Part shown: positions 27,195 through 53,063 of the stretch, piece after piece
How positions within the stretch are numbered: position 1 is the first letter of the stretch
Layout of the letters: each line of letters starts with the position of its first letter
NCBI GenBank assembly: GCA_964618565.1
Contig: CAZUBA010000002.1
Span: 20,029-84,028, forward strand
Origin: an uncultured Candidatus Peribacteria bacterium
Lineage (GTDB): Bacteria > Patescibacteriota > Gracilibacteria > BD1-5 > UBA2023
Direction: 5' to 3'
Length of the DNA stretch: 64,000 nucleotides
Notes under the pieces: model-generated
Told to the model about the DNA's origin: nothing
Databases searched by the model: none
Seen by the model: the letters and a program-made list of their open reading frames with translations, nothing else
Program-made: the position numbers and the translations under genes

Positions 27195-27791
27195 ATGAGA
27201 AAAATCATTATTCTGACTTTCATGACGCTCGACGGGGTCATGCAGGCGCCTGGCGGACCCGAAGAAGATACATCAAACGGTTTCAAATACGGAGGGTGGA
27301 CTGTCCCCTATTTCGATGAATTCGCTGGGAAAGCCATGGAAGAACAGATGAAGCAACCTTTCAGTTTGCTCCTGGGCAGAAAGACTTTTGAGATATTCGC
27401 ATCTTACTGGCCGATGCATGCGAATGAATGGCCCGGCATTAACGAGTCCACCAAGTATGTGGTTTCTAATACGCTTACAAAGCATGATTGGGAAAATTCT
27501 ATCTTCATATCGGGTGATGTGGTAAAGAAAATAAAAGAACTGAAAAATCAAGCCGGTCCCGATATGCACGTGTATGGTAGCAGCAATCTCATACAGACAC
27601 TTTTGAAGCATGATCTCGCAGATGAGCTTTGGCTCAAGATATTCCCAATCACACTTGGTTCGGGAAAACGTTTATTTGGTGAGGGTACTATTCCTGCCGC
27701 TTTCACGCTTGTGGAATCCAAGACATCGCCCAGCGGGGTTATCATTGCTTCTTATGAGCGTGCCGGAGAAGTTGAAACGGGGTCTTTTTAG
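27195..27791 (+). CDS. dihydrofolate-reductase-like protein (RibD C-terminal domain family)
   Basis: MRKIIILTFMTLDGVMQAPGGPEED...YGSSNLIQTLLKHDLADELWLKIFPITLGSGKRLF. GC-rich with no TGA codon. TAG stop. Confidence 0.85.
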   Translation: MRKIIILTFMTLDGVMQAPGGPEEDTSNGFKYGGWTVPYFDEFAGKAMEEQMKQPFSLLLGRKTFEIFASYWPMHANEWPGINESTKYVVSNTLTKHDWENSIFISGDVVKKIKELKNQAGPDMHVYGSSNLIQTLLKHDLADELWLKIFPITLGSGKRLFGEGTIPAAFTLVESKTSPSGVIIASYERAGEVETGSF

Positions 27792-38542: not shown

Positions 38543-38870
38543 ACTCGAGTTTTACTAATTAAAATGTTATTCTCTTTTACATATTTATATTCAATAGTCA
38601 AAAGTATTTTGGATTTTAAGATGCCTCAAGAAAATATTGACTTAATGAGATAAATAAATAAAAGGTATTAATTGATTTATTTTTTAAACAAAAAAGCCAA
38701 CTTAATAAAAAATAAAATAATAAGTTGTTTTCAAAGGAGATTAAAGATATCGAACAAAAACAAATATTTCTCTAGCTGGGAGAAGAAAGGAATGATGGAA
38801 ATTTCAGCAGTCGCGGGGAAACTATCTTTAGGTGCAACTAACAGAATCAAAAACCGAAAGGAGAATGAGT

Positions 38871-39212
38871 ATGTCAAGAATCTGCGGCTTAGTAGCAATT
38901 TTCGTTTTCTGTCTGATCCTGCCTTTGCAGGCAATCGCCGGCGAGCTTGAGGACGGGAAAATCAGCAATGGCCTGAAAAATGCGCCGGATGTGTCCATCC
39001 TTCAGAGCGAACCATCAGAGCCGATCGTGGTTGCAGTAGGAAACGCCTGGGACTACGCATCCGGAACCATAATGCAGCCGTGCGGTTGCTGGGGATACAT
39101 CCCTCCTTCAACCGCAGTCGAGCCCAAGTGCTTCAGTGGCTACGTAGTGCTTGCCGCATGTAACACCTATTGCTCAGGGGGAGGATACTCATATGGCTAC
39201 AGATGCATGTAG
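38871..39212 (+). CDS. secreted cysteine-rich small protein (GC-rich, TGA-free)
   Basis: RBS aaggag lies 7 nt upstream. Signal peptide MSRICGLVAIFVFCLILPLQAIA. C-terminal CGCWGY...C...C...C...C. TAG stop. Confidence 0.7.
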   Translation: MSRICGLVAIFVFCLILPLQAIAGELEDGKISNGLKNAPDVSILQSEPSEPIVVAVGNAWDYASGTIMQPCGCWGYIPPSTAVEPKCFSGYVVLAACNTYCSGGGYSYGYRCM

Positions 39213-39307
39213 TGTCCGCCTAGAGCAAAATAATGAAAAGTGATTTTATCAGCCTGCAGAAACTGTAGTGCAGTAAAACAGAAGAAGTTTGGCAACATGT
39301 CGAAATC

Positions 39308-39337
39308 GGGGCCTAGTCTTGCACTAGGCCCCTTTCT
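39308..39337 (+). terminator. GC-rich rho-independent terminator
   Basis: Stem ggggcctagt/actaggcccc with loop cttgc, followed by TTTCT. Confidence 0.7.
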
Positions 39338-39405
39338 ATTATGTCCCCCGTTTCTTAGGGGCAAGCTGAAACGAACTTGAGAGACTTGCACCCTTTAAAC
39401 TCCGA

Positions 39406-39433
39406 TTGACATTTTAATAAAAGGCTTTATAAT
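39406..39433 (+). promoter_or_regulatory. sigma70-like promoter
   Basis: TTGACA-N16-TATAAT. The -10 element ends 27 nt before the ATG at 39460. Confidence 0.5.
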
Positions 39434-39459
39434 TATTGTGATTTTAAATAAGCCATTAT

Positions 39460-39912
39460 ATGAAAAATGAAATAATAGAGAGATTAAGGGCGACTGAATG
39501 CGAGTGGCTGGAACTAGAAGATTCCATGGAAATTGATCAAGAAAACCGTAAGCCTGCCTCCTCGGAATGCCCTGAAACAATTATTGAGTTGACCGAAAGA
39601 ACAAGAGAAAGGACTCTTCGACAACTAGCCCTGATTGCCTGACTATCGGAATTGTTACCAAAAAGGCAGAAAGATGATCTCAATCCTCCAGATGTATTCG
39701 ACAGCATAGAATATATTTCAGCACAGGCGAAAAAATTACAAAAGCAGATACTTGATGCAGTGGCTAGTGATGTTAAGCAGATACTAGACAATGTAATGTT
39801 TAAAGCGTCATTGCTTTGATTACCAAGATGAATCAAAGATGGAGAAACAAGATTTTCAACTATTATTACAGAAATAGAAGCGCTTTGAGAAGACGAAAAT
39901 ATTCCTTCCTAA
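39460..39912 (+). CDS. 150-aa protein of unknown family, paralog A
   Basis: Frame checked. 4 TGA-Gly codons. Shares IIERLRATECEW and LLGLPRGIKDGETRFSTIITEIE with the 51750..52202 product. Confidence 0.65.
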
Positions 39913-44415: not shown

Positions 44416-45126
44416 ATGGATACCCGAAATTCTAAGATTTTAGGATGGTCAGTATTTGCTTTAACTCTTTTGGCGTACATCCCTCTTGGTCTCGGCAGCT
44501 GGAATAAACCTGCAGAATTCAATATGCCTAGCTTTCTGGCATGGGTTCTATTGGCAGGACAATTCCTTTATGCAACCCACTCTCAAGGTTTTGATGGTTG
44601 GAGGATGCCCTTCGGATACTTCATCGGCAACATAGGAGTTGTGATAGTCATGTTGTATCGAGGCGGATATACGATGAATCTGACATTTACTGAGCATATC
44701 CTATTCGGAGGTACGATTCTTGTAGGAACAATATGGTTTATATGCTACCAGCGTTCGAAGAAAAGCAATCCTAGGATACTATACTTCGGAAACATCCTCG
44801 TCGATATGATATCCTTCTACCCGCAAATTAAGCAATTTGCAGGAGTGCATGATCCTGTCAGCCTCAAGACACTATTAGGCTGGGCAATGTTTCTCCTTAT
44901 CGCAGTCATTAATGTATTCGTGGTAGAAAGATTCATGAAGAAGATAGCAATGAAAGATAGAGAATATGAATTTGCCTTTAATCGAAAAAAGAGAGTCATG
45001 TCGATTTTGGAGGAAAGCCTATTCTCAATCGAGCAATCAATCTTCATCGGTGGCCTGCTCGTATTAATGCTGTTTTGAAAACATGAACTGATTAGTCCTC
45101 GCTCTAGCGAGGACTTTTCTTATTAA
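44416..45126 (+). CDS. multi-pass membrane protein with PQ-loop-like motif (GC-rich); extended 16 codons past a fossil TGA stop
   Basis: RBS aggagg. The 220-codon TGA-free ORF contains ISFYPQIKQF. The TGA at 45076-78 would read as Gly in this host. The next stop is TAA at 45124-26. Confidence 0.7.
45094..45118 (+). terminator. rho-independent terminator lying inside the read-through extension
   Basis: Stem agtcctcgc/gcgaggact with loop tcta, followed by TTTT. Confidence 0.7.
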
Positions 45127-46691: not shown

Positions 46692-46724
46692 AAAAAATAG
46701 ATAGCTTAAGCTATCTATTTTTTA
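46692..46724 (-). terminator. palindromic terminator
   Basis: aatagatagctt/aagctatctatt flanked by A/T runs. Confidence 0.6.
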
Positions 46725-46738
46725 AAGTCAAAGAGTAA

Positions 46739-47464
46739 TTAATCGCCATCTGCTCAGGTTCAAGAAATACCTGTATCATCATCGCCCTGATTGATCAGAT
46801 TAAAAGCCAAAAAGTTAGAAAATCAGTCATCATATAAAATTTTTTGTCATCTTCAAGGGAAATGTGAAGAAATACCAGAAACTGATTTTGAATTTTTTCA
46901 ATTCAACTCGACTGTGCCTGTTATTGGTTTTTTAATTGTTAATTTATTTGGATTCCTATCTTGAGCCCCTTGTAATGCTACAATATCAGTGAACTCTTTA
47001 ATATTTATGATTATCGCATCTTTTCCAGCTATTGCATCTATAAAGTTCTGTCAGATATGTCCTAGGGATAAGGCATAATATTTTCAATCCAGTTGAACTA
47101 ATGGAAGCATTCTCTTGTCTTTCATCAACTTGATTGCTTGAGTAACCTTTTGAAGTGCAAGGTCATTTTTATCCTCAAGAAGCTTTTTCTTTATATTTGT
47201 TTTGGAGATAATCCGATTAATCTTATATCTGATTGCAGCAGCAATATATCAAAAAATGGTATTTTGAGCTGCTATAAGATTGACTTTATTTATCCTTTTC
47301 GATAAATGTCAGGTGGGATACATATTATTTAATCCGAGATATTCTTGTAAAACCTCAAGTTCATCTAACTGTATTTTTCTAATATATAACTTCCCCAGCA
47401 TTTCTTCTGCTATTTCATCCTCAAAGGGAAAGGGATTTGCTTGAATATTATTATTTAAATGCAT
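46739..47464 (-). CDS. hypothetical protein (241 aa)
   Basis: Frame checked by triplets. Confidence 0.55.
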
Positions 47465-47640
47465 TTTTATAAATATTAATTCCTGAAAATAATATCATAA
47501 AATGTTTCAAGCGCAAAAAATAGCAATATAAAAAAGGGACTAATTTCAATTTAATTTAAATTTGATTGCATAATTGACAAATTCAATTAAATATTTATTA
47601 TGAATCATATTTGTTTAGGTTTAGCTTTTTTAATAAAAAA

Positions 47641-48666
47641 ATGATTCAAACTCCGGATATTCTTCAGCAATGAAATCTGAAAACCATCCGCGCATGTGCA
47701 CGTATTTTAATCTGCATTAAAAAATTTAAAAGAAAGGCTCTGAATATAATTGAGCCACTTTCCTATCAAACTGCAAACAAAAAAGTTCAAGCTTTTTTAA
47801 AGAATCACACTTCCAGTTCAATATGCCTAAGCAGCGTTCATGATACGCTTGACGCCTTAGAACAAAAGCTTTCTCCCGAACAGATCGATGAATCTGAAAA
47901 ACTATGAATTTATGTTGCGATCCTTTGGTCAAATCTTGATAAGATTTTAGATCATAAAAGTGTAACTGATGATATTTTTTTTATGATTCTAGATCATTAT
48001 TATAGCTTATCTAGGGGTTGATCTGTCAAAAATTTACCTTATGCTCAACCGAAATTTCAAGAATTAGAGATTATCGCAAGAAATATTGCAATGATCATTG
48101 CAAGGCTGCCTCAGAAAGAATTATTCCAAGAAATATTTGAGATTCTTTATAATTCTGTATGTGAACAAAGAAGAGGTGAAATCAGATCAAGAGGTTCGTT
48201 TGATTTCTGGTATCTTGACGAAATTAAAAGTGAACTCAGAACATATAATTGACTTTCAGGCGTTGAACAAGATTGGATTTTCCTTTCTGAACGCTTGTGA
48301 TTGGCCTCAGTCATGCTCTCGGCTTGAGCACCATTCTATTTTCTTACTGAATTTTCTGAAAAAGATAAGGCGGCATTTCTGGATTTGCTTCATTTTTGAT
48401 CAGTCTGACAATTATTAGATGATAGCATTGATGCTGAGAAAGATAATGATAACGGCAAATATTCATTCATGACATTGAAATGAAATAAGAGCATACGTGA
48501 AATTTTCGTTACAAATCAGCGAATTAAAAATATAATCAGGTTCCCTCTTAATTGAAGCTCTTTCCGCACATTCACAGCATTCAGGGATGCTTATCCGATT
48601 CTTAGCAAATTAAGGCCACCTGATAACAAAGCAGATCTTCCTTATGAAATCTGATCTTTAAAGTAA
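47641..48666 (+). CDS. hypothetical protein (341 aa) with one DDxxD-like motif
   Basis: Frame checked. GQLLDDSIDAEKDNDNGK is reminiscent of the second Asp-rich motif of isoprenoid synthases. No first motif was seen. Confidence 0.5.
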
Positions 48667-48679
48667 ATCTGATACATAA

Positions 48680-50485
48680 TTATAGGCTCGTATCATATTC
48701 CTCTAAAAATCAATCTTTTTGAAAATCCACCATTTCCTTATAGGCTTTATTTTTATTGTAAAGGGAATCATGGGATCATGAATCGATTACTTCTCAATTT
48801 TCAAGAAGGAATATTATATCTGAGTTCTTTATAGTTGATAGCCTGTGGGCGATGACTATTGAAGTCCTTCATTTCATGAGGTTGTTCAAAGATTTCTGGA
48901 TGATGCTTTCTGTTTTGGAATCCAGAGCTGAAGTCGGCTCATCAAGGATCAAGATATCAGGATCTCTTAATATGGCTCTTGCGATTGAAAGCCTTTGCCT
49001 TTCTCATCAAGAAAGCTTAAGTCACTTTTCACCTACTTCAGTTTCAAAACCAGCCTCCAGCTTCTCTATGAAATCAAGAATCTCCGCCTTTTTACAAGCC
49101 ATTCTTACTTCTTCTAATGTAGCGTCTTCTTTAATATATTTAAGGTTGCTTAAGATCGTCTCATTAAATACTGTAGTATCTTGAAATACTGCCGCAAATT
49201 TCCCCCTGTAGCTATCAAGAGTATAATCTTTGATATTGATTCAATCAACAATCACTTCTCAAAACTCAGTCTCATAGAATCTTGTCACAAGATTTGATAT
49301 TGTCGTCTTTCAAGATCAGGTATGTCATACAAATGCGACTTTTTGTCATTTTTTTATTTCCAGATTTAGATTTTTAAGTATTTCTCTGTCGCTTTTTTTG
49401 TAATTGAAAGTTATATCTTTTAATACTATATTGTTTTTTAATCAAGAGAATTCGATTTTTCATTCATTCAATTCTTTCGGAGAATCGGTAATTTGTTTTG
49501 TTTTATGAAAATCAGCAAGATCCCTTATGACGGATTGATATGATGATAAGAGACTATCTATGGGTCATGATATCCTTCATGAAATATAGATGAAAACAAG
49601 AAGCTCACCTATCGTCAGGAATCATTTTACTACAAAGAATACTCAAAAAATCATAACAGAAATCTTAGAGAAAGCTTGAACTCATTTTAATATGGTATTT
49701 AAAATATTCCATAAATAGTTGGATGAGGTCTGAATTTTCATGCTTTTTGAAAAATATGATTCAAGTGTTTCATTTTCTTGTTTCTCTTTTGCAAAAAGCT
49801 TTATGATTCCGATATTATTAAGAGCATCATTTAGCCGCTGATAACTCCTATTCCATGCACTATAGGCTTCCTTCTGTATATTAAAGACCTTGCCTCATAT
49901 CTTCAATGTTGCATATATGCTTATTGGCATGAATACCAAAGAAACAAGAGTCATCTTCCAATTAATATAAAGTCAAAATGAAAATAAGCTTATGAAAATC
50001 AATATCTGCGGCAATATCTTATTGAGAAAATTATGTCAAAAGCTCCAGAAAGCATCCGTGCCTTTGTTAAAGATATTTTGTTGAGTTCATGGATTTGTAT
50101 TGACAAAATCGTTATAAGGCAATAATAAAAAGCTTTTTCATATTTTAACAGCATACTTTGCCCAGTCCAAATGCATGATTCGATCGGTGTAATATTCATA
50201 TCATCATTGGGCAAGGATTAAAATTACAGATATTATCCCCCATATGATCGCTAAATAGATAAAATTTGATTTTATTGTTTCGTACGATATTTTATCCGTT
50301 GAAAACTCTTGAATATTATCAATGAATAATTTATAAAAATAAGGCTCTGCAAGAAGAAATGCCGTATTTATCAAAAGCAATAAAAATAACCACCAGAAAT
50401 TTTTTCTGATATGAAGATAATTATTGTAAATATCTTTTATAAGTTCCCATTTTGGAATTGCATGTGTGTCTTTTTCTTCAGTCAT
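48680..50485 (-). CDS. ABC exporter, fused permease/ATPase (MsbA-like)
   Basis: 601 aa. Motifs [42 protein letters not shown]. Frame checked. Confidence 0.85.
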
Positions 50486-50584
50486 TCAGTTCTTGATTAT
50501 AAAATTTATGCTTCAATCCTATACTATATTATTTTAAGGATAAAAGCAAAATTTGAATCGTATTTCCCTAAAGATCGAACAGGC

Positions 50585-50767
50585 TTATGAATTAAAAGAT
50601 ATTTTTGATTTTAGCTTATTATATTCGCTTTCATTTAATTCTAAGGAAGCCACTTTACCATTGACTGAAAAATTAAAATAAACAGTATAGCTGTCTTTTA
50701 TATTTTTTTCCGTGTAAGAAATAAGTCCGCAATTTATAATATTTCACTCTTTTACTTCTGAAAACAT
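50585..50767 (-). CDS. small ORF (60 aa), hypothetical
   Basis: ATG..TAA frame with one TGA. No supporting signals. Confidence 0.3.
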
Positions 50768-51028
50768 AATAATGATGTTATGAAACAATAATTATATCCT
50801 TAGCTATTCAATTATCCAATTAATTTATGAATAAAAATTCAAATTGTACAAGATACGCAGTTGAATTTGCAATCATGAATTGCTTCATAATATGATTTGA
50901 CATAATAATTAATAAAAATATAAATACTGAAACAAAAAGGTTTAAAAAGGAGGAGGTCTGGTTAAAGGAAAAGCTATGCGATGATTGGTTCATTAACCTT
51001 TACGGGCAGTTTTTGAAGGGGGTGCTTC

Positions 51029-51574
51029 ATGGACAAGAAAGCGTGGGATGAGTTTTTTCAAGCCAAGGAAATGTCCAGGTTCATGCTGGAAAACAAATTC
51101 AGGAATCTGGAAGCCATGATGAAAGAGGAGCTCGAAACGAGGGAAACTTACGAAGGGCTTCGGCAATCCAGCTTCCAATTCGAGTTCAAGCTGAAGCCCT
51201 TGGCAAAAATGGGGAGCCTCATCACAGACGTGAAGTCGATCTACTACTGCATCATCGGGAAATTCAACCACGATAAGAGCTTCGAACACTGCAAAGCTAT
51301 GATTGCTGAATTTGAGAAGAAGCTCAAGGAGCTCATCTACTTCGAAGAATGCTGCAAGATGAAGAAGTTCCTCAGGGCCGATGCCCAGTACGAGGAGATG
51401 GAAGCGTTGGGGCTCTTCGAGCTCGGCGACAAAGAACTCGACAAAATCTCTCTGCTGAGGGGTCTCGTCATGCGGTGCGCCTGCTGCTTCAACTTCATGG
51501 AAAGCTCTTCGCTGATCGAGGAATACGAAGGGCTCATGGTGAAAATCCGCCTTTATGAACCAGTTCCCGCGTAG
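51029..51574 (+). CDS. GC-rich, TGA-free, Cys-rich helical protein (181 aa), unknown family
   Basis: Intact in the standard code. G-rich RBS (gaaggggg). TAG stop followed by a strong terminator. Strong GC3 bias, unlike the neighbouring genes. Confidence 0.7.
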   Translation: MDKKAWDEFFQAKEMSRFMLENKFRNLEAMMKEELETRETYEGLRQSSFQFEFKLKPLAKMGSLITDVKSIYYCIIGKFNHDKSFEHCKAMIAEFEKKLKELIYFEECCKMKKFLRADAQYEEMEALGLFELGDKELDKISLLRGLVMRCACCFNFMESSSLIEEYEGLMVKIRLYEPVPA

Positions 51575-51597
51575 CTTCCTACCCAACTCAGATTAAC

Positions 51598-51626
51598 CAA
51601 AACCCCGCATAATGCGGGGTTTTGTT
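51598..51626 (+). terminator. GC-rich rho-independent terminator
   Basis: Stem ccccgca/tgcgggg with loop taa, followed by TTTT. Confidence 0.75.
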
Positions 51627-51695
51627 ATTTCATCATAAGCAGAACCTTAAAAATGCAGCCTAAATATGAACTACACACAGCAATGAGCTTGAGTA

Positions 51696-51723
51696 TTGAC
51701 TTTTTCAACAAAAGCACTATAGT
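51696..51723 (+). promoter_or_regulatory. sigma70-like promoter
   Basis: TTGACT-N16-TATAGT. The -10 element ends 27 nt before the ATG at 51750, the same geometry as at 39406. Confidence 0.5.
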
Positions 51724-51749
51724 CAGAGCATTAATTCTTCTTTATCTGC

Positions 51750-52202
51750 ATGGAAGTCCAAATTGTCAAAAGACTTAAAGAGGCTGAAGAAAAATGGCTC
51801 CTGTCAAATGCTGCTATTGAAAATATAAATTTGCAGATAGTCCAGCTGTTGGAGAAAAGGCCTAGAGAAAGAAGAAAGATGGTATTGACAATACAAAAGC
51901 AAACTAAAGACAAAATCATTGAGCAATTGAATATCATACTTTTATTGCAGAAAATCATATCACAAGAAACAATTATGTCTATTCCGGAAAGCATATTTTC
52001 GGATGTGAATTGCCTCACTGAAGAGGCTAAGAAAATACTCGATCTCATAGAAGACACTGACTCTGATGCTCTGGATGAATTGCTTGAAAAGATAACTTTC
52101 AGAGTTTTTTTCTTAGGGGTTCCTATTTGAGCAAAAGGAAGTGAAACAAGATTCTCTGAAATGATTTCAAAAATTGAATCGAATTTATCAAATATTGATT
52201 AA
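51750..52202 (+). CDS. 150-aa protein of unknown family, paralog B
   Basis: The track ORF continues through TGA 52128-30 to TAA 52200-02. Motifs IVKRLKEAEEKW and FLGVPIGAKGSETRFSEMISKIE. Confidence 0.65.
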
Positions 52203-52298
52203 TTCCCTACCCTATTCCCTTAAAGATGAATCCTTTTATCACTGTTATATGTAGATTCCATTCAGTATACGGATCTGACGATATATAAATATTTACGT

Positions 52299-53063
52299 TT
52301 ATTTGATATTAAAAATAAAATCCTTTAAAGCTGCCATTGAGCCTATATAGGCTTTAGTGATTTCAATGAGCGTTCATTCTGGTTCAAGAGCTTTTCAAAT
52401 ATTTATATACCACTTATTTTGCTTATCTCTATAAACATAAATAGGGATAATGGGGCTATTGTTTTTGATTGCCATCTTTGCAAATCATGGCTTTATTCAC
52501 TCATGCCAAGTCTTTATAGAGTCCAGACGAGTTGAATAAAACCTCTTATCTTTGGTATCATATGCTGTTTCTGGAATAAAATCTTGTTTTCAGCTTCCCC
52601 ACCAATTTCAATATGGAAATATTATAATATTATTATCTTTGAGTCAGTTTAGGATCCGTTTAACATCATGAAAATTCCGCTTTTGGGCAATCTGATTGTT
52701 AGGTACATTCAAATGAATAGGATATCAATCTATTAAAATGCCAAATAGAGCATGAGAAAATCTTGAATGAATGGTATAAATAAGATCAGCCATTCTTGAG
52801 TCTATGGCCATATCGCTATCTCATCTGAATACCACTTTTGATTTTTTTATTCATCTGACTTCCAATACATTTTTTAATGCTCAAAAATCATCCGGCATAG
52901 TAAAAATTTTGTGCCGTAAATCAGAATGAGGTGTTATATGATTTGGTGCAAATATTACAAATTTTCAACTTTTATTTAAATCTGAAACTTTTTCCAATGT
53001 ATTATTGTCATCTCAAACAAAAACTATTTTTGAAACAAATGAATCAATGTTCTCTATTCACAT
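52299..53063 (-). CDS. lysophospholipid acyltransferase (PlsC-like)
   Basis: FAPNHITPHSD (NHxxxxD) and IIIFPYGNWWG. 254 aa. Confidence 0.7.

What the first reader, a model, noticed from the sequence alone, without database searches (positions are those of the whole stretch)
50940..52202. Repeated two-gene cassette, copy 2: GC-rich 181-aa Cys-rich protein plus paralog B
The 181-codon ORF at 51029..51574 samples at roughly 45-60% GC by hand count in 60-nt stretches. Neighbouring genes sample at about 20-30%.

Its other properties also differ from native genes:
- It uses GGN for glycine and has no TGA.
- It has strong GC3 bias.
- It has a G-rich RBS and a TAG stop.
- It has a textbook GC-rich terminator (51598..51626).

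The protein has clustered cysteines (YYC, HC, ECC, RCACC) and no family I can name.

Promoter 51696..51723 and paralog B (51750..52202) follow immediately. This mirrors 39406..39912 down to the 27-nt spacing from -10 to ATG and the identical 150-codon length.
Basis: partly seen in the sequence, partly recalled or inferred. Interest (0 to 1): 0.7.

Follow-up and report, generated by a model that had tools for sequence, protein, structure and literature searches.

The report
Foreign-looking orphan gene in recoded bacterium
A small gene with an unknown product, written in a GC-rich, standard-code-compatible "dialect", sits in the AT-rich genome of a bacterium that reads TGA as glycine; it is most likely a captured foreign gene, and a second, unrelated gene of this kind sits in the same position beside a sister gene 12 kb away.

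Summary
The window comes from a TGA=glycine (code 25) Gracilibacteria/BD1-5 genome from the Rifle aquifer, at 32% GC.

**The 181-codon ORF (51029..51574)**
- It is 49% GC, with GC1/2/3 of .47/.27/.73 against .39/.32/.27 in native genes.
- None of its 7 glycines is encoded by TGA. Native genes use TGA for 65% of glycines.
- It has a strong Shine-Dalgarno site, in a genome where about 1 of 47 native genes has one.
- It ends in TAG and is followed by an intrinsic terminator.
- Its untranslated flanks are also GC-elevated.

Three independent assemblies carry the same joins, so it is not a chimera.

**The "repeated cassette" is only half repeated**
- The two 150-aa downstream genes are true but old paralogs (25% identity). 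Each has its own promoter.
- The two GC-rich upstream genes are unrelated. One is a 181-aa cytoplasmic helical Cys-rich protein. The other is a 113/115-aa secreted 6-Cys peptide.

None of the four proteins has a homolog or family in any searched resource; the 115-aa peptide got no large protein-database search.

**Best reading:** these are single-gene islets acquired from higher-GC, standard-code, SD-using donors, lodged just upstream of a lineage-specific paralog pair. Their function is unknown. The finding is moderately interesting and is a new member of a known kind.

The parts
50897..50924 (+). Candidate promoter for the 181-aa gene (TTGACA-16-TATAAA), in native AT-rich DNA just left of the island
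   Evidence: Read directly from the sequence. The scan did not list it because its rule requires a T at position 6 of the -10 hexamer. This assignment is inferred, not shown.
50940..51028 (+). GC-elevated 5' leader (43% GC) with the SD GAAGGGGGTG at 51015-51024. It also holds an orphan AAAGGAGGAGG at 50945-50955 and in-frame upstream ATGs at 50976 and 50981.
   Evidence: Native intergenic DNA is about 24% GC, and native genes lack SD sites (1 of 47).
51029..51574 (+). 181-aa ORF: a soluble, all-helical, Cys-rich (7 Cys) orphan protein with pI 5.5, no TGA codon and a TAG stop
   Evidence: GC1/2/3 of .47/.27/.73 identifies this frame as the coding one. The open antisense ORF at 50993..51586 is its shadow.
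51598..51624 (+). Intrinsic terminator (12-bp stem, 7 G-C pairs, followed by a T-rich tail)
   Evidence: (I8). Weak Rfam matches here hit only the terminator parts of leader and sRNA models.
51625..51695 (+). Spacer, still GC-elevated (34%). The island ends at the -35 hexamer of the next promoter.
51696..51723 (+). Sigma-70-type promoter of paralog B (TTGACT-16-TATAGT)
   Evidence: It is similar to the paralog A promoter (P = 0.008).
51750..52202 (+). Paralog B: a 150-aa native-composition gene with one TGA = Gly, predicted as a 5-helix bundle. Conserved C-terminal motif LGxPxGxKxxETRFSxxIxxIE.
   Evidence: Comparison between strains gives 12 synonymous and 10 nonsynonymous codon differences, including a GGA<->TGA change.
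38871..39212 (+). Copy 1 cargo: a 113-aa secreted peptide (115 aa if started at 38865). It has a Sec-type signal ending LQAIA|GE and 6 Cys in the mature part. GC3 is .60, 0 of 13 Gly are TGA, and the stop is TAG. A GGAG lies 8 nt before the ATG at 38871.
   Evidence: Public gene callers instead called the antisense 171-aa ORF.
39308..39332 (+). Intrinsic terminator of the copy 1 cargo gene
   Evidence: (I11)
39406..39433 (+). Promoter of paralog A (12/12 match to consensus)
39460..39912 (+). Paralog A: 150 aa, with 4 of 5 Gly encoded by TGA. Equals GenBank ACD_3C00228G0001.

Best explanation
The 181-aa ORF is a real, separately transcribed protein-coding gene. It lies on a compositional islet of about 0.75 kb (about 50,940-51,695), probably acquired horizontally from a higher-GC, Shine-Dalgarno-using, standard-code donor. 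The recipient is a TGA=Gly Gracilibacteria (BD1-5) chromosome.

The islet landed in the divergent spacer between an MsbA-like ABC exporter gene (minus strand) and a native 150-aa helical-bundle gene, paralog B. It probably borrows an adjacent native AT-rich promoter at 50897-50924. It is translated from its own SD and stops at its own hairpin terminator. Paralog B is then read from its own promoter.

The gene works in the recoded host because it has no in-frame TGA and ends in TAG. Its product is a soluble, all-helical, acidic protein with seven cysteines. My guess is a metal- or redox-cofactor-binding or disulfide-forming protein.

A second, unrelated islet at about 38,750-39,405 encodes a secreted 6-Cys peptide. 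It occupies the same position in front of paralog A. So the spacer just upstream of this gene family's promoter is either a preferred capture site or the site of a functional partnership.

Shown: the composition, the coding frame, the signals, the physical linkage, the paralogy, and the absence of homologs in the resources searched. Inferred: foreign origin, promoter use, protein function, and any link to the paralog.
For: **Recoded host.** Searches show that TGA is a sense codon here.

**Multiple foreign signatures**
- GC3 is .73, against .27 in native genes.
- 0 of 7 Gly codons are TGA (P = 6e-4).
- Synonymous-codon likelihood is among the lowest in the window.
- The two islands are the top two GC and tetranucleotide outliers.
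- The non-coding leader and 3'UTR are also 39-45% GC, against about 24% in native spacers. This argues for a mutational history elsewhere rather than codon selection.
- Strong SD sites occur on the 181-aa, 115-aa and TM236 genes, while 1 of 47 native genes has one.
- Native highly expressed genes (S20, IF-3, L20) have GC3 of .30-.33.

**Coding frame.** The three-position periodicity picks the plus frame.

**Physical linkage**
- Logan contig L006 equals window 46697-51606 at 100%.
- ENA contig L004, from another sample, spans 51414-52418.
- L001 and L007 span the whole of copy 1.

**Other imports in the window**
- A RibD_C gene has 0 of 19 Gly encoded by TGA.
- A 236-aa membrane protein has a single TGA 18 codons before its TAA, which looks like a former stop codon.

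**Association with the paralogs.** The paralogy has E = 3e-15. If 4 islets fell at random among about 50 spacers, both paralog-upstream slots would be filled with P of about 0.005. This is my own post hoc calculation.
Against: - No donor or homolog was found. The 181-aa protein has no homolog in the 5.8e9-cluster search, in the exhaustive HMMER scan of 1.84e9 representatives, or in tblastn-type scans of JGI metagenomes, GTDB genomes, IMG/VR, phages and plasmids.
- A recent import from a deeply sequenced aquifer might be expected to have a visible relative.
- There are no mobility genes, tRNA gene, or significant flanking direct or inverted repeats.
- Every spanning contig recovered carries the island; an empty slot would not have been retrieved by these look-ups, so variable presence is untested.
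- GC2 is as low as in native genes (.27). A K/E/L/F-rich helical composition explains this, but it is also what a native protein would show.
- The few differences between strains in the cargo genes are all nonsynonymous: A151S and C152Y in the 181-aa gene, and W to G in the 115-aa gene. So purifying selection on them is not demonstrated.
Confidence: 0.6

Rival explanations
1. The two genes form a functional module with variable cargo and a conserved partner. The 150-aa helical-bundle paralog would be a cognate partner (immunity, chaperone, regulator or anti-toxin) for whatever Cys-rich protein is encoded just upstream. This resembles polymorphic toxin/immunity or effector/chaperone pairs. The cargo genes are swapped in by recombination, which explains why the cargo differs while the partner family is kept.
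For: - Both members of a two-member orphan family carry an atypical, Cys-rich, orphan gene directly upstream. Orientation is the same, and the island ends at the -35 box in both loci.
- No third paralog exists in the window or in the databases.
- The C-terminal third of paralog B is a divergence hot spot between strains: 22 of the 23 differences within the gene lie in about 155 nt.
Against: - The genes are not co-transcribed. A strong terminator and a separate promoter lie between them.
- The paralogs have native composition and TGA codons, while the cargo does not. They therefore did not travel together.
- There are no hits to PADLOC, Pfam, NCBIfam or PHROGs toxin, immunity or defence models.
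- One cargo protein is secreted and the other is cytoplasmic. A single kind of partner is hard to reconcile with both.
- The sample is only two loci.
Confidence: 0.2
2. The composition is maintained by selection, not inherited from a donor. The genes would be lineage-specific effectors kept TGA-free, SD-bearing and GC-rich because they must be decoded by a standard-code, higher-GC partner or prey cell after nucleic-acid transfer. Alternatively, an RNA-level property such as stability or structure is required.
For: - It would explain several things at once: the total absence of homologs, the absence of TGA, and SD sites in an SD-less genome.
- It would also explain persistence of the unameliorated composition in strains about 95-99% identical.
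- The 181-aa mRNA folds somewhat better than shuffled sequences (z = -3.1 from 20 shuffles). A 26-nt pairing joins the 5' leader to the 3' end of the ORF (I2, 75).
Against: - There is no evidence of any transfer apparatus or of such a mechanism in CPR bacteria.
- The likely promoter lies outside the GC-rich segment.
- One strain has already gained a TGA codon in the 115-aa gene (TGG to TGA). That would be a stop codon in a standard-code cell.
- Copy 1 shows no excess RNA structure (z = -1.5).
- The fold z-score includes the terminator hairpin.
Confidence: 0.05
3. It is a native gene whose GC-ending codons reflect translational selection for, or deliberate throttling of, expression.
For: C-ending codons for Phe, Tyr, Ile, Asn, His and Cys are the Watson-Crick partners of G34 tRNAs. 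Such codons are often preferred in highly expressed genes of AT-rich genomes. This rests on general knowledge.
Against: - The ribosomal protein and IF-3 genes in the same window have GC3 of .30-.33.
- The enrichment also covers CTC/CTG, AGG, GGG, AAG and GCC.
- The untranslated flanks are GC-rich too.
- Avoiding TGA for Gly runs against the native preference of 65%.
Confidence: 0.05
4. It is an assembly chimera or contaminant fragment, or the GC-rich stretch is a non-coding RNA and the ORF is spurious.
For: - The GenBank contig AMFJ01000504 starts at window 51656, just after the island.
- Paralogs A and B are each 'gene 1' of their original contigs.
- An antisense ORF of 197 codons is also open.
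- Public gene callers did not record the 181-aa product.
Against: - Independent assemblies from SRR446575, SRR446577 and SRR944699 cross every junction collinearly.
- Logan contigs end inside the terminator hairpins, which is a palindrome effect.
- There are no Rfam matches beyond terminator fragments.
- The strong codon periodicity (GC3 .73 against GC2 .27) is a coding signature.
Confidence: 0.03

Closest known systems
Horizontally acquired orphan (ORFan) genes and genomic islets, recognised by atypical composition in the amelioration framework of Lawrence and Ochman (from my own knowledge)
   Same: - A sharp local rise in GC and GC3.
- Deviant codon and tetranucleotide usage.
- Translation signals foreign to the host.
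- A short, self-contained transcription unit with no detectable relatives.
   Different: - The recipient uses genetic code 25, so absence of TGA and presence of an SD become extra markers of foreignness.
- There is no integrase, tRNA target or flanking repeat.
- No donor was identified.
- Two unrelated islets occupy the same position relative to members of one paralog family.
Code-11-compatible phages targeted by Gracilibacteria and Absconditabacteria spacers (Liu et al. 2023, mBio, PMC10746230)
   Same: These are genes that lack in-frame TGA yet are associated with code-25 hosts. They show that standard-code-compatible DNA can enter and function in these lineages.
   Different: - Nothing here looks viral. 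There are no PHROG, IMG/VR or phage matches.
- That paper found integrated prophages in these lineages to be densely TGA-coded, which is the opposite of these islets.
Polymorphic toxin/immunity or effector/chaperone two-gene modules
   Same: A variable, Cys-rich or secreted small protein sits next to a small helical protein that recurs as a family. There is also a hot spot of divergence between strains in the partner gene.
   Different: - A terminator and a separate promoter lie between the genes.
- The partner and the cargo have different evolutionary origins.
- There is no homology to any toxin, immunity or defence family.
Integron gene cassettes
   Same: Single-gene units of foreign composition are inserted at a recurrent position next to a conserved element.
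   Different: - There is no integrase, attI site or attC-like imperfect inverted repeat.
- These cassettes carry their own SD and terminator and are not arranged in an array.

Membership tests
Horizontally acquired genomic islet | Base composition and codon usage deviate from the host genome | tested here: met
   - GC is 49% against 32% (z = +4.0).
- GC3 is .73 against .27.
- The two islands are the top two tetranucleotide outliers.
- Synonymous-codon likelihood is among the lowest in the window.
Horizontally acquired genomic islet | Non-coding flanks share the foreign composition, which separates mutational history from codon selection | tested here: met
   The leader is 43% GC and the 3'UTR plus spacer is 40% GC. 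Native spacers are about 24% GC.
Horizontally acquired genomic islet | Homologs in a plausible donor, or phylogenetic incongruence | tested here: not met
   No homolog was found in any protein or nucleotide resource searched.
Horizontally acquired genomic islet | Mobility hallmarks: integrase or transposase, tRNA target, flanking repeats | tested here: not met
   - Neighbouring genes encode ThrC, MsbA, a histidine kinase and orphan proteins.
- The only tRNA gene is at 16.3 kb.
- Flanking repeats are no better than chance.
Horizontally acquired genomic islet | Variable presence among close strains | tested here: inconclusive
   - The islands are present in contigs assembled from SRR446575, SRR446577 and SRR944699.
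- One Rifle contig, L005, diverges from the window after position 50719. Only 31 nt of different sequence are available.
Toxin-antitoxin or toxin-immunity operon | Two small genes co-transcribed as one operon | tested here: not met
   A 12-bp-stem terminator at 51598-51624 and a separate promoter at 51696-51723 lie between them. Copy 1 has the same arrangement.
Toxin-antitoxin or toxin-immunity operon | Sequence or fold similarity to known toxin, antitoxin, immunity or defence families | tested here: not met
   - Pfam, PHROGs, PADLOC and NCBIfam gave nothing significant.
- The paralog B model (pLDDT 82) has no Foldseek match with E < 0.1 in PDB or BFVD.
Integron cassette | attC recombination site and a nearby integron integrase | tested here: not met
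   Apart from the terminator hairpin, inverted repeats are weak or look like chance matches. No integrase domain was found among the neighbours scanned.
Structured non-coding RNA | Match to a covariance model, or excess folding stability without a coding signal | tested here: not met
   - Rfam returns only terminator fragments.
- Fold z-scores are -3.1 (terminator included) and -1.5.
- Codon periodicity is strong.
Diversity-generating retroelement target | Template/variable repeat pair and a reverse transcriptase | tested here: not met
   No second copy of either island exists in the 64 kb.

The most novel reading that the evidence does not exclude
The orphan 150-aa paralog family marks a dedicated capture-and-expression slot. 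At this slot a TGA-recoded CPR bacterium would repeatedly install single-gene cassettes that remain readable under the standard code: TGA-free, SD-bearing and GC-rich.

In the boldest form, these are effector genes kept code-neutral because they are decoded in a standard-code host or prey cell. The paralog would act as their handler.
Probability: 0.06. Interest if true: 0.75.

Novelty: new member of a known kind. Interest (0 to 1): 0.35.

Why it matters
**A clean example of gene flow into a recoded genome.** In such a genome, "foreign" can be read off four independent signals: GC3, avoidance of the reassigned codon, presence of a Shine-Dalgarno site, and GC-rich untranslated flanks.

**Genes that enter are those that survive the code change.**
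- The imported genes have no in-frame TGA and end in TAA or TAG.
- One neighbouring import appears to read through its former TGA stop.
- One strain already shows a TGG to TGA change, which is adaptation to the new code in progress.

**A practical point for annotation.** Public annotations missed both cargo genes. They called antisense or out-of-frame ORFs instead. So such genes are invisible in protein databases of code-25 organisms.

**An open lead.** The recurrence of two unrelated imports in front of the two members of one orphan family is unexplained and worth a genome-wide test.

Tried and rejected
**Homology and family searches that found nothing**
- 181-aa protein: the word-indexed 5.8e9-cluster search and the exhaustive HMMER scan of 1.84e9 representatives.
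- 181-aa protein: tblastn-type scans of JGI metagenome contigs, GTDB genomes and IMG/VR. Also plasmids and phages and PDB sequences.
- 115-aa peptide: metagenomes, IMG/VR, plasmids, phages and PDB.
- Paralogs: single-sequence and profile searches returned only themselves. Scans of GTDB genomes and IMG/VR also found nothing.
- Pfam, PHROGs, PADLOC and NCBIfam gave nothing significant for any of the four proteins.

**Structure**
- The single-sequence AF2 model of the 181-aa protein is too poor to search (pLDDT 51).
- The paralog B model is good (pLDDT 82), but it matches only generic helical bundles.

**Ideas tested and dropped**
- Non-coding RNA: rejected.
- DGR or internal repeat copies: none.
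- Target-site duplication or a duplicated promoter flanking the islands. An AATAAAAGG-containing repeat and a left-flank TTGAC box looked suggestive, but local alignments are no better than shuffles (P = 0.16 and 0.89).
- A third paralog in the window: none.
- Relatedness of the 181-aa protein to the paralogs: none.
- Assembly chimera: rejected by independent contigs.

- Exact-product look-ups of the 181-aa, 115-aa and several neighbouring ORFs failed because gene callers chose other frames.
- Code-25 translations could not be submitted for structure prediction. The code-4 database versions were used instead, with Trp at the TGA sites.
Full report
**Context**

The window is not standard-coded. 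Long ORFs cover 17 kb under table 11 and 101 kb when TGA is read as sense. In the long native genes TGA supplies 65% of glycine codons, about 4-5% of all codons, while TGG stays near 1%. That is the genetic code 25 pattern.

The two 150-aa genes are identical, apart from W/G at the TGA sites, to GenBank proteins ACD_3C00228G0001 and ACD_3C00230G0001 of "uncultured bacterium (gcode 4)". I recognise these names as the Rifle aquifer ACD metagenome and its BD1-5/Gracilibacteria bin; the searches returned only the names. The surrounding genes are ordinary chromosomal ones:
- S20, IF-3, L20, GatC, RecF and RlmN.
- Asp/Asn-tRNA synthetase and a GH3 glycosidase.
- Threonine synthase, a histidine kinase and an MsbA-type ABC exporter.

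**Checking the observation**

- The ORF at 51029..51574 has 181 codons and a TAG stop.
- It is 49% GC in a 32% GC window (z = +4.0).
- It and the 38.9-kb island are the two most GC-rich and the two most tetranucleotide-deviant stretches of the 64 kb.
- GC at codon positions 1/2/3 is .47/.27/.73, against .39/.32/.27 in native genes.
- None of its 7 glycines uses TGA (P = 6e-4 at native usage).
- Its synonymous choices (CTC/CTG, AGG, GGG, TTC, ATC, TAC, TGC, AAG) are nearly the reverse of the native ones.
- The terminator at 51598-51624, the promoter at 51696-51723 and the 27-nt distance from the -10 hexamer to the ATG are confirmed. The same holds for their counterparts at 39308-39332 and 39406-39433.

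- Native genes here essentially lack Shine-Dalgarno sequences (1 weak case in 47). The 181-aa gene (GAAGGGGGTG, 5 nt before the ATG), the copy 1 gene (GGAG, 8 nt before the ATG at 38871) and a third atypical gene (AGGAGG) all have strong ones.
- The untranslated leader and trailer of both islands are 39-45% GC, against about 24% for native spacers.

Corrections to the finding:
- Neighbouring genes are 26-37% GC, not 20-30%.
- Under code 25 an upstream in-frame ATG at 50981 is open through the TGA at 51014, so a 197-aa form cannot be excluded.

**Is it a gene, and on which strand?**

The antisense frame is also open for 197 codons. Public pipelines called either antisense or out-of-frame ORFs in both islands. 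That is why the true products are absent from protein databases.

The plus frame is the coding one, for these reasons:
- It has GC3 far above GC2, as expected of a coding frame.
- The antisense frame would need GC1 = .73.
- Its SD and terminator are on the plus strand.
- In copy 1 the plus frame gives a textbook Sec signal peptide.

Rfam finds nothing except terminator fragments. Folding excess is weak: z = -3.1 including the terminator hairpin for copy 2, and -1.5 for copy 1.

**Is it an assembly artefact?**

No. The evidence comes from four independent contigs.
- Logan contig L006 (SRR446575) equals window 46697-51606 at 100%. It runs from the ABC exporter through the whole 181-aa ORF into the terminator.
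- ENA contig L004 is a MEGAHIT assembly of a different sample, SRR944699. It covers 51414-52418 at 95.4%, running from inside the ORF through the terminator and promoter into paralog B.
- Copy 1 is spanned by L001 (99.97%) and by L007 (99.3%).

The contig breaks in the older records have technical explanations. Logan contigs end inside the terminator palindromes (39329 and 51606). GenBank AMFJ01000504 starts at 51656.

**What is repeated**

Only the downstream gene is repeated.
- Paralogs A and B are 25% identical over their full length (E = 3e-15).
- They share the C-terminal motif LGxPxGxKxxETRFSxxIxxIE and the same length.
- Their promoters are similar (P = 0.008).
- They have native composition and carry TGA codons.
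- They are the only members of their family in the window and in the public databases searched.

The upstream genes are unrelated to each other.
- The 181-aa product is soluble, acidic (pI 5.5) and predicted all-helical. Its Cys residues are at 74, 88, 108, 109, 150, 152 and 153.
- The copy 1 product is a 113/115-aa secreted peptide with six Cys in a Gly/Tyr-rich C-terminal domain.

Each pair consists of two transcription units separated by a strong terminator. "Repeated two-gene cassette" therefore overstates the case. A more accurate description is: two unrelated foreign-looking single-gene islets, each ending at the -35 box of one member of an old paralog pair.

**What it most likely is**

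The combined signals fit a transcription unit that evolved in a higher-GC, SD-using, standard-code genome and was then captured. Those signals are the GC-rich third positions, the GC-rich untranslated flanks, complete avoidance of the host's favourite glycine codon, a strong SD in an SD-less genome, and TAG stops.

Translational selection is an unlikely alternative, because S20, L20 and IF-3 in the same window have GC3 of .30-.33.

The window holds two further, more ameliorated examples.
- A RibD_C-domain gene at 27195..27791 has 0 of 19 Gly encoded by TGA.
- A 236-aa membrane protein at 44416..45126 has an AGGAGG SD. Its single TGA lies 18 codons before its TAA, which looks like a former stop codon now read through.

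Transfer into a code-25 genome is expected to be feasible for genes without in-frame TGA. Code-11-compatible phages linked to Gracilibacteria have been reported (PMC10746230). I therefore give about 0.6 to horizontal acquisition.

The main weakness is that no donor or homolog of any kind exists in the resources searched. In addition, there are no mobility hallmarks.

**Function**

Function is unresolved.
- Pfam, PHROGs, PADLOC and NCBIfam give nothing significant for any of the four proteins.
- The paralog B model is confident (pLDDT 82, five helices). It matches only generic helical bundles.
- My working guess for the 181-aa protein is a Cys-ligated metal or redox protein.
- The between-strain changes A151S and C152Y, inside the RCACC motif, show that at least Cys152 is dispensable or that constraint is relaxed.

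**Why both islets sit in front of the paralogs**

This remains unexplained. If the four atypical genes were dropped at random into about 50 spacers, both paralog-upstream slots would be filled with P of about 0.005. This is my own post hoc estimate.

The options are:
- A preferred insertion or retention site.
- A functional partnership with variable cargo and a conserved partner (rival, about 0.2).
- Coincidence.

I tested for duplicated target or promoter sequence at the island edges and found nothing above chance.

**Verdict**

This is a new member of a known kind, namely compositionally foreign orphan islets. It has two added points of interest:
- The recoded host makes the foreign signature unusually legible.
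- The cargo recurs next to a paralog family.

Interest is 0.35.

Noticed in passing
window 44416..45126 (+): A 236-aa multi-pass membrane protein with foreign-like traits: GC3 of .44, an AGGAGG SD, and 1 of 20 Gly encoded by TGA. Its only TGA lies 18 codons before the TAA. It looks like a standard-code gene whose TGA stop is now read through as Gly, adding a 17-residue tail after that Gly (KHELISPRSSEDFSY...). An ENA table-11 gene call (P0008, 220 aa) clusters with it at 90% or more.
   Followed up: partly
window 27195..27791 (+): A RibD_C-domain (dihydrofolate-reductase-like) gene with GC3 of .49, 0 of 19 Gly encoded by TGA and a TAG stop. It is the third most GC-rich stretch of the window and is probably an older import from a standard-code donor.
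   Followed up: partly
window 39050 vs L007 (ENA ERZ936476, SRR944699): The only substitution in the 115-aa ORF between strains is TGG to TGA. This is Trp62 to Gly under code 25 and would be a stop under the standard code. An imported gene is thus acquiring the host's reassigned codon.
   Followed up: yes
window 52038..52195 vs L004: Differences between strains in paralog B are sharply clustered. There is 1 difference in the first 620 nt of the alignment and 22 in the last 155 nt or so of the gene. These make 12 synonymous and 10 nonsynonymous codon changes, including a GGA<->TGA change that is silent only under code 25. This suggests a recombination tract or a local diversification hot spot.
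   Followed up: partly
L005 1..31 (ENA ERZ28564412, ANAN16-1_SAMN03202999), abutting window 50719: A Rifle contig is 100% identical to window 50000-50719. It then continues with 31 nt (42% GC) that match nothing in the window. This could be a different occupant of the copy 2 spacer in another population, or an assembly end artefact.
   Followed up: partly
whole window, gene starts: Native genes have virtually no Shine-Dalgarno motif (1 weak case in 47), and 40 of 51 genes end in TAA. Translation initiation in this organism appears to be SD-independent.
   Followed up: partly
window 38677..39192 (-), 50827..51276 (+): Public gene calls (Logan, ENA) in both GC-rich islands are antisense or out-of-frame ORFs. 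The real products are absent from the 15-billion-protein collection. Such imports may therefore be missed systematically in code-25 genomes.
   Followed up: yes
window 50971-50996 / 51552-51577: A 26-nt imperfect inverted repeat (77% complementary) pairs the 5' leader of the 181-aa mRNA with the 3' end of its ORF. In the predicted fold it closes the whole message into a panhandle. Its significance is unclear.
   Followed up: partly
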